Shown here: positions 1,960-12,302 of the stretch, piece by piece
How the letters are laid out: the number at the start of each line of letters is the position of its first letter
Numbering within the stretch: the first letter of the stretch is position 1
Virus record (IMG/VR): IMGVR_UViG_2529293038_000015
DNA: 12,302 nucleotides
Reading direction: 5' to 3' (one strand)
From: a virus
Taxonomy: Duplodnaviria > Heunggongvirae > Uroviricota > Caudoviricetes
The notes under the pieces: generated by a model
Database searches by the model: none
Seen by the model: only the letters and a program-made list of their open reading frames with translations
What the model was told of the DNA's origin: nothing
Translations under genes and position numbers: made by a program

Positions 1960-2297
1960 CGCGGGAAATGCAGTTTGTCATGCGGCTTGCCCGGGAGTTC
2001 CGGCGGGCAGACTGGCGGCGGATGCTGTCGGAAATGTCGGCCACTGAGCTTGGTGAGTGGGGCGATTATTTCCGGATGCAGAGCTTCAGTGATGTGTGGA
2101 TGGATGCGCAGTTTGCCTCGCTGAAGGCATTGATCGTGAGAATGGTGTCCGGCAGCAGTGATGCTGCGGTGGCTGATTTCAGCCTTTTACCGGAAGAGAA
2201 CGGGATACCGGAGCGAACGGACGAAGAACTGATGCATCTTGGGGAAGGTATTTCCGGAGGTGTGCGTTATGGACCAGATAGCCAACCTGGTCATTGA
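1573..2297 (+). CDS. T: Tail assembly chaperone G-T fusion made by programmed -1 ribosomal frameshift near the 3' end of G
   Basis: The -1 frame is open from 1537 through 2297 with no independent RBS or start for T; a slippery-like heptamer G GAA AAG (1947-1953) lies 2 codons before the G stop. Arrangement is the conserved G/GT of lambdoid tail operons. T stop (2295-2297) overlaps the H start. Confidence 0.7.
1947..1953 (+). promoter_or_regulatory. Putative -1 frameshift slippery site for G-T (G_GAA_AAG)
   Basis: In the G frame GAA-AAG; in the -1 frame GGA-AAA. Lambda uses G_GGA_AAG; here the P-site codon is GAA rather than GGA while the A-site AAG to AAA slip is retained. Confidence 0.5.
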
Positions 2298-5200
2298 TTT
2301 GGGGATTGATGCGGCAGAGTTTAAAAATGAAATCCCCCGTATCAAAAACCTTCTGAATGGTGCAGCCAGCGATGCAGAACGGTCTTCTGCCCGTATGCAG
2401 CGTTTTATGGAGCGTCAGACTCAGGCCGCCCGGCAGACAACGCAGGCGGCTTCTTCGGCTGCAACAGCCGCATCCGTCCATGCGCAGACGGTGGAGAAGA
2501 ACGCACAGGCTCATGAACGCATGGCCCGCGAGGTGGAGAAAACCCGCCAGCGCATGGAGGCGCTGAGCCAGAAAATGCGCGAGGAACAGGCGCAGGCCAT
2601 GGCTCTGGCGGAGGCTCAGGATAAAGCGGCTGCTGCGTTTTATCGTCAGATTGACAGTGTGAAACAGGCCAGTGCGGGGCTGCAGGAATTACAGCGTATT
2701 CAGCAGCAGATCCGACAGGCCAGAAACAGTGGCGGGATTGGTCAGCAGGATTATCTGGCGCTGATTTCTGAGGTTACGGCGAAAACCCGTGTTCTTACAC
2801 AGGCTGAGGAAGAGGGTACCCGACAGAAAGTGGCGTTTATCCGTCAGCTTAAAGAGCAGGCAACCCGCCAGAATCTTTCATCTTCTGAGTTGCTTCGTGC
2901 TAAGGCTGCCCAGCTGGGGGTAAGCAGTGCTGCAGAAGTGTATATCCGCAAAATGGAGCAGGCAGGAAAAGCCACGCATTCGCTGGGTCTGAAAAGTGCA
3001 GCGGCCCGCCAGGAGATAGGCGTTCTGATAGGTGAACTGGCCCGCGGCAATTTAGGGGCGCTGAGGGGATCCGGGATAACGCTGGCTAACCGTGCCGGAT
3101 GGATAGACACACTGATGTCACCGAAAGGCATGATGCTGGGCGGGGTTATTGGCGGTATTGCCGCAGCTGTCTATGGTCTGGGTAAAGCCTGGTATGACGG
3201 TCAGAAGGAGGGGGAAGAATTTAACCGCCAGCTGTCGCTGACGGGGCATTATGCCGGAGTCACTGCCGGGCAGCTGTGGACGCTCAGTCGTGCTATTTCC
3301 GGGAATGGTATCACGCAACATGCTGCAGCCGGTGCGCTGGCTCAGGTGGTGGGGAGTGGTGCATTTCGTGGAAACGATATCGGTATGGTGGCGAGAGCTG
3401 CCGCACAGATGGAGCGATCGGTTGGCCAGTCGGTCAGCGATACCATAAGTCAGTTTAAGCGGCTGAAGGATGATCCTGTAAATGCCGCGAAGGCTCTGGA
3501 CAATGAGCTGCATTTTCTTACTGCCACTCAGCTTGAGCAGATACGCGTCCTTGGGGAACAGGGGCGTCCAGTGATGCGGCACGGATAGCCATGTCTGCAC
3601 TGGCAGAGGAAACCGGTCGGCGTACTGCGGATATTGATAATAACCTCAATGCGCTGGGCAGTACGCTGAAGTATCTGTCTGATTTATGGAGTCGTTTCTG
3701 GGATGCGGCCATGAATATTGGTCGTGAAGACTCGCTGGATGAACAGATTTCCGCTTTACAGGAGAAAGTGTCGCGGGCGAAAAGACTCCCCTGGACGGCA
3801 TCATCTTCTCAGGTTGAGTACGATCAGCAGCGTCTTAACGAGCTTCAGGAAAAAAAACGCCAGAAGGATTTGCAGGATGCAAAAGAGCAGGCAGAGCGGA
3901 ATTATCAGGAGCAACAGAAACGCCGTAATGCTGAAAATGCTGCACTGAACCGGATGAATGAAACGGAAGCAGCACGACATCAGCGTGAAATTGCGCGTAT
4001 TAATGCCATGCAGTACGCCGATCAGACTGTCAGGGATGCGGCGATACAACGTGAAAATGAACGTTACGAGAAAGCCCTGGCATCCGGTAAGAAAAAAACA
4101 CGCGAAACCCGTAATGATGAGGCCACCCGGTTATTGCTGCAGTACAGTCAGCAACAGGCACAGGTGGAAGGACAGATTGCTGCTGCCAGACAGTCAGCAG
4201 GCATTGCCACGGAAAGGATGACAGAAGCGCATAAACAGCTTCTGGCTCTGCAGCAGCGCATCAGCGACCTGGACGGGAAAAAACTGACGGCAGATGAAAA
4301 GAGTGTGCTGGCCCGTAAAGATGAACTGATTCAGGCACTGACGCTGCTGGATGTAAAACAGCAGGAGCTTCAGAAACAGACGGCACTCAACGAGCTGAAG
4401 AAAAAAACAATTCAGCTGACCAGTCAACTGGCTGAAGAAGAGCGTGCTCAGCGTCAACAACATAATCTGGATATCGCCACGGTGGGTATGGGTGATCAGC
4501 AGCGGCAGCGATATCAGGTACAACTGAGTCTTCGTCAGAAATACCAGCAACAGCTGGAGCAGTTGAGGCGGGATAGTGAGCAGAAAGGGACATATAACAC
4601 GGATGACTACAGAAAGGCCGAGCAGGCGCTGACGGAGAGCCTGAACCGACAACTGAATGAGAATCGCCGTTACTGGCAACAGCTTGAAATTGCTCAGGGT
4701 AACTGGAAAAACGGAGTCCTGCGTGCACTCCAGAATGTCACTGAGAATGCGGATAACACAGCCTGGACAGTGGAACAGTTGTTCACGTCTGCGTTCAGTA
4801 GCATGAGTGACTGGCTGGCGACATTCTGTACTACAGGCAAACTCAATTTCAAATCTTTTACTTCTTCTGTGCTGTCAGATATGTCCAGAATCATGGCTCA
4901 GATAGCTTTAATGAAAGCGGTAAAAGGCATTGCTTCCGCGCTGCCTTTTGATTTTGTAGCCAATGCTGATGGCGGTGTTTATCAGTCGGCTGATTTGAGT
5001 CGCTACAGTGGCACGGTGGTTAACCGTCCGACGTTTTTTGCTTTTGCAAAAGGCGCGGGTGTGATGGGGGAAGCGGGACCTGAAGCCATTCTGCCATTGC
5101 GTCGTGGTGCTGACGGTAAGCTGGGGGGTGTGGCGGATATTGGGGGTTCAGGTATGGCGATGTTTTCCCCGCAGTACAACATCGAGATCAATAACGATGG

Positions 5201-5324
5201 CACGAACGGGCAGATAGGTCCGGCTGCCCTGAAGGCGGTTTATGACCTCGGGAAAAAAGCGGCAGCGGACTTTATGCAACAGCAGGCCCGTGATGGTGGT
5301 CGGTTAAGTGGAGCATATCGGTAA
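2269..5324 (+). pseudogene. H: Tail tape measure protein H, split into two reading frames by a 1-nt frame disruption at about 3537-3588 (pseudogene or sequencing error)
   Basis: ATG 2269 (MDQIANLVIDLGIDAAEF.., cf. lambda H MAEPVGDLVVDLSLDAARF) with GGAGG at 2256-2260. The first frame stops at 3588; the second frame is open from 3537 and ends ..INNDGTNGQIGPAALKAVYD..ARDGG.. like the lambda H C-terminus. Both parts align collinearly to one tape measure protein; combined length ~1018 aa. ORF-track start 2239 is a TTG. Confidence 0.85.
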
Positions 5325-5653
5325 TGGAGACGTTTCACTGGAAAGTGCGCCCGGATATGAATGTGGTATCAGAGCCGAAAGTGGTGACAGTGAAGCTGGG
5401 CGATGGTTATGAACAGCGTCGTGCGGCGGGACTGAATAACCAGTTGTCGACTTACAGCGTGACGATACGTGTTCGTAAATGTGAACACCCATCTTTAAAA
5501 GCCTTTCTGGAACGGCACGGTGGCGTCCGCGCATTTCAGTGGACGCCACCTTATGACTGGAAACCGATTAGGGTGGTTTGTCGTAAATGGTCGGCAAGCG
5601 TGGGGGCGCTGTGGGTAACCATAACGGCAGATTTTGAACAGGTCGTGGCATAG
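5324..5653 (+). CDS. M: Tail tip assembly protein M
   Basis: ATG overlaps the H stop (TAATG at 5322-5326); 109 aa; METFHWKVRPDM..GDGYEQRR..TYSV..FLERHGG..F.WTPPYDWK..EFEQVV matches lambda gpM (109 aa). Confidence 0.92.
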   Translation: METFHWKVRPDMNVVSEPKVVTVKLGDGYEQRRAAGLNNQLSTYSVTIRVRKCEHPSLKAFLERHGGVRAFQWTPPYDWKPIRVVCRKWSASVGALWVTITADFEQVVA

Positions 5654-5662
5654 GAGGCTCTG

Positions 5663-6364
5663 ATGCAGGATATTCCACAGGAAACACATCATGAGACGAC
5701 ACGCCTCACTCAGTCAGCCCAGGTGGTGCTCTGGGAAATCGATCTGACAGAGGTCGGTGGTGAACGTTATTTTTTCTGTAATGAGCAGAACGAAAAAGGT
5801 GAGCCGGTTACCTGGCAGGGGCGGCAGTATCAGGCATACCCCATTCAGGGGACAGGATTTGAACTGAACGGCAAGGGCAGTGCTGCCCGTCCGACACTGA
5901 CGGTTTCTAACCTGCACGGCATGGTCACGGGGATGGCGGAAGACCTGCAGAGTCTGGTCGGCGGAACGGTGGTCAGGCGTAAGGTTTACGCCCGTTTTCT
6001 GGATGCGGTGAACTTCGTCAACGGAAACAGCGACGCCGATCCGGAGCAGGAGGTGGATCAGCCGCTGGCGCATCGAGCAGTGCAGCGAACTGAGTGCGGT
6101 CAGTGCCTCCTTTGTGTTGTCCACACCGACGGAAACGGATGGTGCTGTTTTTTCCGGGGGCGTATCATGCTGGCCAACACCTGCACCTGGACCTATCGCG
6201 GTGATGAGTGTGGTTATCACGGTCCGGCTGTCGCGGATGAATATGACCAGCCGACGTCCGATATCACGAAGGATAAATGCAGCAAATGCCTGAGCGGCTG
6301 TAAGTTTCGCAATAACGTCGGCAACTTTGGCGGCTTCCTTTCCATTAACAAACTTTCGCAGTAA
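5663..6364 (+). CDS. L: Tail tip assembly protein L
   Basis: ATG 5663 with AGGAGG at 5652-5657; 233 aa; N-terminal ~130 aa and C-terminal ~70 aa (..RIMLANTCTWTYRGDECGY..KCSKCLSGCKFRNNVGNFGGFLSINKLSQ) match lambda gpL (232 aa); the central segment differs (see findings). Confidence 0.9.
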   Translation: MQDIPQETHHETTRLTQSAQVVLWEIDLTEVGGERYFFCNEQNEKGEPVTWQGRQYQAYPIQGTGFELNGKGSAARPTLTVSNLHGMVTGMAEDLQSLVGGTVVRRKVYARFLDAVNFVNGNSDADPEQEVDQPLAHRAVQRTECGQCLLCVVHTDGNGWCCFFRGRIMLANTCTWTYRGDECGYHGPAVADEYDQPTSDITKDKCSKCLSGCKFRNNVGNFGGFLSINKLSQ

Positions 6365-6368
6365 TCCC

Positions 6369-7112
6369 ATGACACAGACAGAATCAGAGATTCTGGCGCA
6401 CGCCCGGCGATGTGCGCCAGCGGAGTCGTGCGGCTTCGTGGTGAGCACGCCGGAAGGGGAAAGATATTTTCCCTGCGTGAATATCTCCGGTGAGCCGGAG
6501 GCGTATTTCCGGATGTCGCCGGAGGACTGGCTGCGGGCAGAGATGCAGGGTGAGATTGTGGCGCTGGTCCACAGCCACCCCGGTGGTCTGCCCTGGCTGA
6601 GTGAGGCTGACAGGCGGCTGCAGGTGCAGAGCGATTTGCCTTGGTGGCTGGTCTGCCGGGGTGAGATTCATAAATTCCGCTGTGTGCCGCATCTTACCGG
6701 GCGGCGCTTTGAGCACGGGGTGACGGACTGTTACACGCTGTTCCGGGATGCTTATCATCTGGCGGGGATTGAGATGCCGGACTTTCATCGTGAGGATGAC
6801 TGGTGGTGTCACGGCCAGAATCTCTATCTGGATAATCTGGAGGCCACAGGGCTGTATCAGGTGCCGTTGTCAGCGGCGCAGCCGGGCGATGTGCTGCTGT
6901 GCTGTTTTGGTTCATCGGTGCCGAATCATGCCGCCATTTACTGCGGCGACGGTGAGCTGTTGCACCATATTCCTGAACAACTGAGCAAACGAGAGAGGTA
7001 TACCGACAAATGGCAGCGACGCACACACTCCCTCTGGCGTCACCGGGCATGGCACGCATCTGCCTTTACGGGGATTTACAACGATTTGGCCGCCGCATCG
7101 ACCTTCGTGTAA
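6369..7112 (+). CDS. K: Tail tip assembly protein K with N-terminal JAB/MPN (JAMM) and C-terminal NlpC/P60-like regions
   Basis: ATG 6369 (MTQTESEIL..); JAMM-type motif HSHPGG..SEAD at 6570-6610; Cys/His region (GVTDCYTLFRDAYH..NHAAIYCGDGELLHH). An alternative internal start at 6513 would give 199 aa. The 3' end overlaps I by 103 nt in a different frame. Confidence 0.85.
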   Translation: MTQTESEILAHARRCAPAESCGFVVSTPEGERYFPCVNISGEPEAYFRMSPEDWLRAEMQGEIVALVHSHPGGLPWLSEADRRLQVQSDLPWWLVCRGEIHKFRCVPHLTGRRFEHGVTDCYTLFRDAYHLAGIEMPDFHREDDWWCHGQNLYLDNLEATGLYQVPLSAAQPGDVLLCCFGSSVPNHAAIYCGDGELLHHIPEQLSKRERYTDKWQRRTHSLWRHRAWHASAFTGIYNDLAAASTFV

Positions 7113-7657
7113 AAACGGGGGCTGAAGCCATCCGGGCGTTGTCCACACAGCTCCCGGCGTTTCGTCAGAAACTGAATGACGGCTGGTATCAGGTGCGCAT
7201 TGCCGGGCGTGATGCAGGTGAAACCGAATTATCTGCCCGTCTTAATGAGCCGCTGGCAAATGGTGCCGTGATCCACATCGTGCCGCATCTGGCGGGAGCT
7301 AAAAGTGGCGGTGTGTTTCAGGTGGTGCTGGGTGCGGCGCTGATTGCGGTGGCATGGTGGAACCCTGTGGGCTGGCTGGGTGCCGCGGCTGTATCGGGCA
7401 TGTATGCGGCAGGGGCCAGTATGATCCTGGGTGGTGTGGCCCAGATGCTGGCACCGAAAGCCCGGACGCCCACAGCGACCAGCACGGATAACGGTAAGCA
7501 GAACACCTATTTCTCATCACTGGATAACATGGTTGCCCAGGGCAATGTTCTGCCTGTTCTGTACGGTGAAATGCGCGTGGGGTCTCGTGTGGTTTCTCAG
7601 GAGATCAGCACGGCAGATGAAGGGGACGGTGGTCAGGTTGTGGTGATTGGCCGCTGA
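7010..7657 (+). CDS. I: Tail tip assembly protein I
   Basis: 215 aa; MAATHTLPLASPGMARICLYGDLQRFGRRIDLRVKTGAEAIRAL.. and C-terminus ..DNGKQNTYFSSLDNMVAQGNVLPVLYGEMRVGSRVVSQEISTADEGDGGQVVVIGR are near-identical to lambda gpI as I recall it. Confidence 0.9.
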   Translation: MAATHTLPLASPGMARICLYGDLQRFGRRIDLRVKTGAEAIRALSTQLPAFRQKLNDGWYQVRIAGRDAGETELSARLNEPLANGAVIHIVPHLAGAKSGGVFQVVLGAALIAVAWWNPVGWLGAAAVSGMYAAGASMILGGVAQMLAPKARTPTATSTDNGKQNTYFSSLDNMVAQGNVLPVLYGEMRVGSRVVSQEISTADEGDGGQVVVIGR

Positions 7658-7675
7658 TGCAAAATATTTCATGTG

Positions 7676-7702
7676 AAACCGCCTCCGGGCGGTTTTGTCG
7701 TT
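7676..7702 (+). terminator. Hairpin with flanking A/T tracts in the I-J intergenic region (weak terminator candidate)
   Basis: 8-bp stem AAACCGCC (7676-7683) / GGCGGTTT (7688-7695), loop TCCG, followed by a T-rich stretch TGTCGTTT; located between the I stop (7657) and J start (7718). Confidence 0.35.
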
Positions 7703-7714
7703 TATGGAGCATGA

Positions 7715-12302
<4,588 letters not shown>

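What the first reader, a model, noticed from the sequence alone, without database searches (positions are those of the whole stretch)
7010..7112. 103-nt out-of-frame overlap between K and I
The K reading frame remains open 103 nt past the I start codon, so the C-terminal ~34 aa of K are encoded in the same DNA as the N-terminus of I in another frame. This is consistent with lambda-type organisation but constrains evolution of both proteins and implies translational coupling.
Basis: seen in the sequence. Interest (0 to 1): 0.2.

Follow-up and report, generated by a model that had tools for sequence, protein, structure and literature searches.

The report
Known lambda K/I tail-gene overlap
The 103-base overlap between tail-assembly genes K and I is real and is the same one annotated in phage lambda, so it is ordinary; both reading frames are kept by selection, but nothing here shows that translation of the two genes is coupled.

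Summary
K (6369-7112, JAB + NlpC/P60 peptidase) stays open 103 nt past the ATG of I (7010-7657), which lies in the -1 frame. Reference lambda (K 14276..14875, I 14773..15444) and phage cdtI (99.3% identical) have the same geometry.

Databases give I three different starts: 215/223 aa, 200/202 aa from Met14, and 182/190 aa from a GTG at the K stop. Comparison supports ATG 7010. It is invariant in all 263 lambda-clade loci, whereas the Met14 codon is CTG in 88, GTG in one and TTG in one. An invariant GAGAGG lies upstream of 7010.

The substitution phase switches from K-type to I-type near 7047-7053. I-synonymous sites in 7059-7088 are almost frozen (6 of 10 unchanged, against 1 of 62 elsewhere in I). 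So the K tail motif SAFTGI(Y/C)NDL is also under selection.

In 12 distant relatives K and I overlap by only -5 to +20 nt, so the long overlap is derived in the lambda clade: K gained about 18 aa and I gained 13 aa.

Translational coupling is not supported. The K stop lies 100 nt downstream of the I start, I has its own conserved SD-like motif, and the RNA is less structured than shuffled controls. There is no frameshift site. Already known; low interest.

The parts
6369..7112 (+). Gene K, tail tip assembly protein K (247 aa): Prok-JAB domain at residues 3-105, NlpC/P60 domain at 111-224, and an 18-23 aa C-terminal tail
   Evidence: Translation; Pfam PF14464 and PF00877; 96-97% identical 247-aa homologues with thousands of members; same stop position in 260 of 263 lambda-clade loci
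7010..7657 (+). Gene I, tail tip assembly protein I (215 aa): 13-aa N-terminal extension, ubiquitin-like domain (residues 14-97), glycine-rich/hydrophobic linker, and the C-terminal domain seen in the virion tip
   Evidence: Translation; Pfam PF06805 at residues 14-97; full-length match to lambda gpI chain 8iyk_I, E = 7e-107; ATG invariant in 263 loci
7010..7112 (+). The 103-nt K/I overlap; the I frame is the K frame shifted by -1
   Evidence: identical in lambda and cdtI annotation
6993..6998 (+). GAGAGG, the likely Shine-Dalgarno sequence of I, 11 nt before ATG 7010. It is embedded in K codons GAG AGG, and AGG is a rare Arg codon
   Evidence: Invariant across divergent clades while the flanking synonymous sites vary; 0-2 changes per site against a mean of 7.3 at K third positions. 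Function is inferred, not shown
7010..7048 (+). Overlap part A. K residues 214-227 form the last helix and strand of the NlpC/P60 fold and dominate here. The I N-terminal extension MAATHTLPLASPG is the variable partner
   Evidence: Substitutions peak at K third positions (3.31 changes per site against 0.92 and 1.85). KWQRRTHS(L/I/A/V)WRH is conserved while the I extension varies. The AF2 model has helix 213-218 and strand 219-225
7049..7051 (+). ATG for Met14 of I. It is the ancestral family start and the start chosen in many database annotations, but it is not conserved as a start codon in the lambda clade
   Evidence: Most distant homologues begin at this residue. The codon is CTG in 88 loci, GTG in 1 and TTG in 1. 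No SD-like sequence lies upstream
7059..7088 (+). Dual-coding core. The K tail reads SAFTGI(Y/C)NDL and I reads ICLYGDLQRF, with both frames constrained
   Evidence: 6 of 10 I-synonymous sites have zero changes, against 1 of 62 in I-only sequence (Mann-Whitney p = 5e-5). T234, G235, I236, N238 and D239 of K are invariant among homologues down to 67% identity
7110..7112 (+). K stop codon, TAA here and TGA in lambda. It lies within I codons 34-35
   Evidence: TAA/TGA interchange counted 10 times on the tree

Best explanation
This is the ordinary lambda-type K/I junction, a genuine 103-nt out-of-frame overlap in which both frames are translated.

Gene products. I most likely starts at ATG 7010, served by its own GAGAGG motif at 6993-6998, and carries a 13-aa leader ahead of its ubiquitin-like domain. 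K reads on to TAA 7110-7112 and ends in a tail of about 18 aa beyond the point where distant K homologues stop.

Origin. The overlap is a derived feature of the lambda clade. The ancestral junction was a short one (-5 to +20 nt), with I starting at the Met14 equivalent. In the lambda clade the K stop moved about 60 nt downstream and the I start moved 39 nt upstream.

Selection. It is partitioned. K dominates 7010-7048, where it encodes the last helix and strand of the NlpC/P60 fold. I dominates 7049-7109, where it encodes the first strand of the ubiquitin-like fold. In a roughly 30-nt core (7059-7088) both frames are constrained.

Expression (inferred, not shown). I is initiated independently inside the K reading frame, not by termination-reinitiation.
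For: Anatomy and identity with lambda and cdtI.

I start:
- ATG at -39 from Met14 is invariant in all 263 lambda-clade loci (I identity 50-100%). The Met14 codon is CTG in 88, GTG in 1 and TTG in 1.
- GAGAGG is invariant, including its K-synonymous positions.
- A clade whose K is JAB-only still has a 13-aa extension on I (MNMTTAFPETARS).

K end:
- The stop is at +64 from Met14 in 260 of 263 loci.
- The motif S-A-F-T-G-I-x-N-D-L is conserved in K homologues down to 67% identity.

Selection:
- Fitch changes per site on a tree of 180 haplotypes show a phase switch. In K-only sequence the peak is at K position 3 (7.33). In 7010-7048 it is still at K position 3 (3.31). In 7049-7109 it is at I position 3 (5.35). 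In I-only sequence it is at I position 3 (9.87).
- I-synonymous sites are suppressed in the overlap (p = 0.0016 for all of part B; p = 5e-5 for the core).
- K-synonymous sites are suppressed in part A (p = 0.007-0.018).

Derived state: in 12 distant phages the K/I overlap is -5 to +20 nt. Their I starts 0-4 codons before the Met14 equivalent, and their K ends about 3 aa after the LRH motif, which corresponds to K residue 229 here. Most distant I homologues align their residue 1-3 with residue 14-16 here.

Independent initiation: RNA 6960-7130 folds less stably than 198 of 200 shuffles (z = +2.1). There is no Rfam match, promoter or terminator in the overlap.
Against: - No experimental N-terminus of gpI or C-terminus of gpK was found. 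Virion structures resolve only gpI 134/135-223, and gpK is not in the virion (PMC10721106, PMC12617516). The supplementary files held for PMC10721106 contain none of the N-terminal gpI peptide strings searched.
- The 11-nt spacing between SD and ATG is longer than the E. coli optimum (own knowledge).
- The 30-nt core was delimited after seeing the data, so its p-value is optimistic.
- The loci are related prophages that recombine, so parsimony counts are not independent events.
- The last 7 K residues are variable, and the AF2 tail helix has only pLDDT 55-68.
Confidence: 0.85

Rival explanations
1. I really starts at Met14 (ATG 7049). The overlap would then be 64 nt, and the 13 upstream codons would be an untranslated by-product of the K frame.
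For: The Pfam I domain begins at residue 14. Most distant homologues start at this residue. Thousands of near-identical database proteins are annotated as 200/202 aa starting MARICLYG, although the upstream ATG is present in their DNA. The extension varies in sequence, and its changes fall at K-synonymous sites.
Against: The Met14 codon is CTG in the whole Stx-phage clade (88 loci), GTG in L133 and TTG in L142, while ATG -39 is invariant in all 263 loci. There is no SD-like sequence before 7049, against an invariant GAGAGG before 7010. The K-synonymous third base of AAA at 7010 never changes. A 13-aa extension is kept in a clade where it is not overlapped by an NlpC/P60 domain.
Confidence: 0.1
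2. The K tail (residues about 230-247) is functionless read-through. Its apparent conservation comes only from the I frame beneath it.
For: Distant K homologues end about where residue 229 lies here. The last 7 residues vary freely. In part B most substitutions are I-synonymous and K-altering. AF2 confidence for the tail is moderate to low.
Against: Selection on I alone leaves I third positions free. Yet 6 of 10 in 7059-7088 never change, against 1 of 62 elsewhere in I. The T-to-C change at 7067 seen in several clades is synonymous in K (Phe) but alters I (Tyr to His). No RNA structure offers an alternative reason.
Confidence: 0.2
3. The overlap exists to couple translation of I to translation of K.
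For: K and I are functional partners: a JAB peptidase predicted to process a ubiquitin-like domain (PMC1779556). They are co-transcribed and adjacent in nearly all relatives. Distant relatives have classic 4-20 nt coupling-type overlaps.
Against: Here the K stop lies 100 nt 3' of the I start, so terminating ribosomes are far from it. I has its own conserved SD-like motif. The region is less structured than shuffled controls, so there is nothing for K ribosomes to unmask. A GTG overlapping the K stop (GTGA in lambda) is GTA here and ATA in Citrobacter, so a reinitiation start is not conserved.
Confidence: 0.12
4. The overlap hosts a programmed -1 frameshift that makes a K-I fusion, by analogy with lambda G/GT.
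For: I is in the -1 frame of K. Scattered database proteins are K-I fusions (P0002, P0006, P0020, P0284, P0303, P0358). Iyer et al. report a TAPI-JAB fusion in one E. coli prophage.
Against: No X XXY YYZ heptamer occurs in the K frame of the gene (6369-7112), nor in any frame of 6900-7112. No stable downstream structure is predicted. The fusion proteins are almost all single-member clusters with different junctions, as expected from indels or sequencing errors.
Confidence: 0.02

Closest known systems
Bacteriophage lambda genes K and I (NC_001416: K 14276..14875, I 14773..15444)
   Same: The overlap length (103 nt), frame relation and K stop position are the same. The overlap DNA is nearly identical: 3 differences in 103 nt, one of them TAA versus TGA at the stop. 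The I N-terminus MAATHTLPLASPGMARICLYG is identical.
   Different: Outside the overlap, I is only 77% identical, with a shorter hydrophobic linker (215 against 223 aa). RefSeq lambda K is annotated from an internal start (199 aa), which cuts into the JAB domain. Here the full 247-aa frame starts 4 nt after the L stop.
Enterobacteria phage cdtI orf16/orf17 (NC_009514)
   Same: 99.3% DNA identity over 6300-7720 and the same annotated 103-nt overlap.
   Different: cdtI K is annotated 8 codons shorter at its 5' end. The cdtI tape measure gene is intact, whereas this window lacks one base in it.
K/I junctions of distant lambda-like and T1-like siphophages (Ralstonia Dina, Pseudomonas PseuP_224, Serratia Scapp, Cronobacter phiES15, Escherichia JLBYU41 and phiEB49, Salmonella SSU5, Rhizobium TM16 and others)
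   Same: The gene order L-K-I-J is the same, as are the JAB + NlpC/P60 K and the ubiquitin-like I.
   Different: Overlap is only -5 to +20 nt. K ends just after the LRH motif, and I starts 0-4 codons before the Met14 equivalent. These phages have neither the K tail nor the 13-aa I leader.
Long out-of-frame overlaps formed by overprinting, a general class known from small phage and viral genomes (own knowledge)
   Same: Each gene's newly added segment lies over an older, more constrained segment of the partner. Substitution rates drop and codon periodicity switches within the overlap.
   Different: Here both genes were extended in opposite directions over each other's ends. No wholly new gene arose inside an old one.

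Membership tests
Lambda tail tip assembly protein K (JAB + NlpC/P60 peptidase) | N-terminal Prok-JAB/MPN domain | tested here: met
   PF14464, E = 4.7e-14, residues 3-105
Lambda tail tip assembly protein K (JAB + NlpC/P60 peptidase) | C-terminal NlpC/P60 (C40) domain | tested here: met
   PF00877, E = 5.8e-13, residues 111-224, full profile length
Lambda tail tip assembly protein K (JAB + NlpC/P60 peptidase) | Encoded between L and I in the tail tip module | tested here: met
   L (PF05100) at 5663-6364, K at 6369-7112, I at 7010-7657, J from 7718; same order in lambda and cdtI
Lambda tail assembly protein I (PF06805, TAPI) | N-terminal ubiquitin-like Lambda_tail_I domain | tested here: met
   PF06805, E = 3.8e-24, residues 14-97
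Lambda tail assembly protein I (PF06805, TAPI) | C-terminal domain homologous to the gpI part resolved in the lambda tail tip | tested here: met
   Residues 131-214 match PDB 9e7m gpI chains (E = 7e-44). The full length matches 8iyk_I. gpI 134/135-223 is resolved in virions
Lambda-type K/I overlap | 103-nt overlap with I in the -1 frame of K and the K stop inside I codons 34-35 | tested here: met
   Window 7010..7112 against lambda 14773..14875
Translationally coupled gene pair (termination-reinitiation type) | Upstream stop codon overlapping, or within a few nt of, the downstream start codon | tested here: not met
   K stop 7110-7112 lies 100 nt 3' of ATG 7010 and 61 nt 3' of ATG 7049. The I-frame codon at the stop is GTA here, which is not a start
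Translationally coupled gene pair (structure-unmasking type) | Stable mRNA structure sequestering the downstream ribosome-binding site | tested here: not met
   6960-7130 folds at -38.2 kcal/mol against -47.2 for shuffles, z = +2.13
Translationally coupled gene pair (any type) | Dependence of I synthesis on K translation | not testable with these tools
   Needs a K nonsense mutant and measurement of I
Programmed -1 ribosomal frameshift (lambda G/GT type) | Slippery heptamer X XXY YYZ in the upstream frame within the overlap | tested here: not met
   None in the K frame of the gene (6369-7112), nor in any frame of 6900-7112

The most novel reading that the evidence does not exclude
The overlap records a two-way extension specific to the lambda clade: K gained about 18 aa and I gained 13 aa over each other's ends. 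The K tail motif SAFTGI(Y/C)NDL would be a functional, newly evolved C-terminal element, predicted to be helical. It could, for example, dock K to the assembling tip or to its predicted substrate I, and it would be kept by selection acting on top of the I coding constraint. The conservation signal is measured here. The function is speculation.
Probability: 0.45. Interest if true: 0.25.

Novelty: already known. Interest (0 to 1): 0.1.

Why it matters
It matters little as a discovery. The overlap is part of the reference lambda annotation and recurs unchanged in hundreds of E. coli, Shigella, Salmonella and Citrobacter prophages.

The practical value is for annotation. Databases carry three incompatible I starts (215/223, 200/202 and 182/190 aa) and two or more K starts. 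The comparative evidence here favours ATG 7010 for I and the full 247-aa K.

The junction is also a clean small example of partitioned selection in an overlap. It gives a testable handle on whether the K C-terminal tail does anything.

Tried and rejected
- -1 frameshift fusion: no slippery heptamer.
- RNA element in the overlap: no Rfam match at E <= 1 within 7010-7112, and the fold is weaker than shuffled controls.
- Internal promoter or terminator in the overlap: none found.
- I start at the GTG overlapping the K stop, which gives the 182/190-aa database forms: the codon is GTA here and ATA in Citrobacter, and that start would delete the first strand of the ubiquitin-like domain.
- A genome-contig scan with a diverse I alignment failed because no stretch was conserved enough. 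The single-protein scan that replaced it returned mostly lambda DNA sitting in unrelated assemblies.
- The lambda ribosome-profiling paper (PNAS 2013) and the Casjens-Hendrix lambda review are not held in the library. The supplementary files held for PMC10721106 contain none of the N-terminal gpI peptide strings searched. No direct experimental evidence on the I start was therefore obtained.
- The AF2 model of K gave only moderate confidence for the tail, and I did not take it further.

Full report
**1. What is there**

The window carries a lambda-type tail tip module. The coding frames are:
- M at 5324-5653
- L at 5663-6364 (Pfam Phage_tail_L)
- K at 6369-7112
- I at 7010-7657
- J from 7718

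K (247 aa) has a Prok-JAB domain at residues 3-105 and an NlpC/P60 domain at residues 111-224. I (215 aa) has the Lambda_tail_I ubiquitin-like domain at residues 14-97. Its C-terminal part matches the gpI segment resolved in lambda tail tips (PMC10721106 and PMC12617516).

The K frame ends at TAA 7110-7112, and the first ATG of the I frame is at 7010.

**2. It is the lambda overlap**

Over 6300-7720 the window is 99.3% identical to phage cdtI. It has 80-99% matches in 269 phage records. cdtI annotates K at 13819..14538 and I at 14436..15083. Reference lambda annotates K at 14276..14875 and I at 14773..15444. Both overlaps are 103 nt. Across the junction, the window, lambda and four E. coli prophages are 99% identical in DNA. 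The K stop is in the same place, TAA here and TGA elsewhere.

**3. Is it more than chance?**

An open out-of-frame run of 34 codons is not unusual in this sequence. It occurs from 22% of positions in the same relative frame of the window's own genes. The evidence that both frames are real is comparative, as set out below.

**4. Which start does I use?**

Databases disagree.
- Near-identical I proteins are annotated as 215/223 aa from the upstream ATG.
- Others are 200/202 aa from Met14 (MARICLYG), with thousands of member sequences.
- Others are 182/190 aa from a GTG at the K stop. A review even quotes 190 residues for gpI (PMC7291167).
- The 200-aa records have the upstream ATG in their DNA, so the difference is annotation only.

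Two observations at first favour Met14. The Pfam domain starts at residue 14. In a search of 1.8 billion representatives, most distant homologues (35-55% identity) align their residues 1-3 with residues 14-16 here.

Within the lambda clade the picture reverses. I collected 263 loci with I identity of 50-100% from IMG/VR, GTDB genomes and GenBank phages.
- The ATG 39 nt upstream of Met14 is invariant in all of them.
- The Met14 codon is ATG in 173, CTG in 88 (the Stx-phage clade), GTG in 1 and TTG in 1.
- GAGAGG at 6993-6998 is invariant, while the neighbouring synonymous sites vary. It includes the rare Arg codon AGG.
- Nothing SD-like precedes 7049.
- A related clade whose K is JAB-only (124 aa), and overlaps I by only 26 nt, still has a 13-aa leader on I (MNMTTAFPETARS).
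- The GTG start is excluded here because the codon is GTA. It is ATA in Citrobacter.

I conclude that ATG 7010 is the functional start in this clade. Whether Met14 is used as well cannot be told from sequence.

**5. Does K really run to 7112?**

The K stop is 64 nt past Met14 in 260 of 263 loci. Two loci have it at 67 and 97 nt, and one has ambiguous bases. Among K homologues down to 67% identity (Salmonella Gifsy-type, Edwardsiella, Citrobacter), the first part of the tail is as conserved as the domains. T234, G235, I236, N238 and D239 are invariant, and S231, A232, F233 and L240 are at least 90% conserved. The last 7 residues vary.

**6. Selection in the overlap**

I built a neighbour-joining tree of 180 distinct 550-nt haplotypes and counted Fitch changes per site.

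| Region | K1/I2 | K2/I3 | K3/I1 |
|---|---|---|---|
| K-only (6830-7009) | 2.10 | 1.05 | 7.33 |
| Overlap part A (7010-7048) | 0.92 | 1.85 | 3.31 |
| Overlap part B (7049-7109) | 0.85 | 5.35 | 1.81 |
| I-only (7113-7298) | 2.34 | 9.87 | 3.24 |

- Codon periodicity switches from K-type to I-type at about 7047-7053. This is where the K NlpC/P60 domain ends (residue 224, nt 7040) and the I domain begins (residue 14, nt 7049).
- Part A encodes the last helix and strand of K in the AF2 model (helix 213-218, strand 219-225). The I leader above it varies: MAATHTLPLASPG, MATPHTLHMATQG, MATTNAFSLASPP.
- In part B, I-synonymous sites are suppressed relative to the rest of I (p = 0.0016).
- In 7059-7088, six of ten such sites never change, against 1 of 62 elsewhere (p = 5e-5). 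Selection on I alone does not explain that. The K tail motif SAFTGI(Y/C)NDL does.
- K-synonymous sites in part A are modestly suppressed (p = 0.007-0.018).

Three caveats apply. The core was delimited after inspection. The sequences are related and recombine. Counts are changes on one tree, not independent tests.

**7. The long overlap is derived**

In 12 distant phages with adjacent K and I, the annotated or inferred overlap is -5 to +20 nt:

| Phage | Overlap (nt) |
|---|---|
| SBP9 | about -5 |
| Dina | -3 |
| TM16 | 0 |
| PseuP_224 | 4 |
| phiES15 | 4 |
| Scapp | 10 |
| phiV208 | 11 |
| SSU5 | 13 |
| Holland_MM2 | 16 |
| PMBT64 | 16 |
| JLBYU41 | 20 |
| phiEB49 | 20 |

In these phages I starts 0-4 codons before the Met14 equivalent. 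K ends about 3 residues after the LRH motif that aligns with WRH 223-225 here. The lambda clade therefore extended K by about 18 aa downstream and I by 13 aa upstream. In this window nothing is mutated relative to its clade.

**8. Mechanism of expression**

Termination-reinitiation coupling requires the stop and start to be close. Here the K stop is 100 nt 3' of the I start. The segment 6960-7130 folds less stably than 198 of 200 shuffles (z = +2.13), so no structure masks the I ribosome-binding site for K ribosomes to open. There is no Rfam match, promoter or terminator in the overlap and no slippery heptamer for a -1 shift into I.

The best-supported reading is independent initiation of I at its own SD-like motif, inside the K reading frame. 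This is an inference. No expression data were available.

The functional link between the two proteins remains plausible: a K JAB peptidase predicted to cleave the ubiquitin-like domain from I (PMC1779556). It is consistent with only gpI 134/135-223 being resolved in virions and with gpK being absent from them. It does not, however, require the overlap.

**9. Verdict**

The feature is already known and ordinary. The modest additions are:
- comparative support for ATG 7010 as the I start
- evidence that the proximal K tail is under selection
- the inference that the long overlap arose in the lambda clade from a short ancestral junction

Noticed in passing
window 2239-5324 (break near 3566): The tape measure gene is split into two frames (ORFs 2239..3588 and 3591..5324). 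Against phage cdtI, which has one 3057-nt gene, the window lacks one G in CAGGGGC(G)GTCCA and is otherwise identical over the 601 nt compared. This is either a frameshifted, possibly defective, prophage tail gene or a sequencing error.
   Followed up: partly
window 6369 vs L002 (lambda NC_001416 14276..14875): RefSeq lambda annotates K as 199 aa from an internal start, which removes about 48 residues of the JAB domain. Here, and in thousands of database homologues, the frame starts 4 nt after the L stop and gives 247 aa with a complete Prok-JAB match (residues 3-105).
   Followed up: partly
window 7677-7696 (I-J intergenic region): An 8-bp GC-rich hairpin (AAACCGCC-UCCG-GGCGGUUU) is followed by a U-rich run. 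A 53-nt fold gives z = -2.8. It is conserved in lambda with a different loop base, and a 'terminator' is among the features annotated under the matching stretch in phage Ayreon. It is absent from the Stx and Citrobacter relatives compared. The simple terminator scan did not flag it.
   Followed up: partly
window 7010/7049/7109; proteins P0001, P0090, P0063: Public annotation gives near-identical I genes three different starts (215/223, 200/202 and 182/190 aa). The shortest form removes the first strand of the ubiquitin-like domain, apparently to avoid calling an overlap.
   Followed up: yes
L104-L117 (genome-contig hits): About 14 hits, all 76-77% identical to the window's I (the same value as lambda's own I), sit on short, often low-coverage contigs in unrelated genomes such as Collinsella, Neobacillus, Shewanella, Bradyrhizobium and Paenibacillus. 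They look like lambda DNA contamination of assemblies. I did not compare the contigs with lambda DNA directly.
   Followed up: no
L143-L155 (IMG/VR): A related clade has a K of only 124 aa (JAB domain alone, no NlpC/P60) directly upstream of I. It overlaps I by 26 nt, and I keeps a 13-aa N-terminal leader.
   Followed up: partly
P0002, P0006, P0020, P0284, P0303, P0358; L129: Scattered database ORFs fuse K to I in one frame. Their junctions differ and the clusters mostly have one member. L129 has a frame break inside the ubiquitin-like domain region. These are most likely indels or sequencing errors and not a programmed fusion.
   Followed up: partly
L087 (Stx2a_1447) 2200-3233; L093 (HK446) 1015-1279: In Stx2a_1447 an IS66-family transposase lies directly downstream of I, where J is expected. 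In HK446 an extra small gene and an annotated terminator separate K from I.
   Followed up: no
window 6362-6371: The L stop (TAA 6362-6364) and the K start (ATG 6369) are 4 nt apart with no SD-like sequence. This L/K junction, unlike K/I, has the geometry expected for reinitiation coupling.
   Followed up: no
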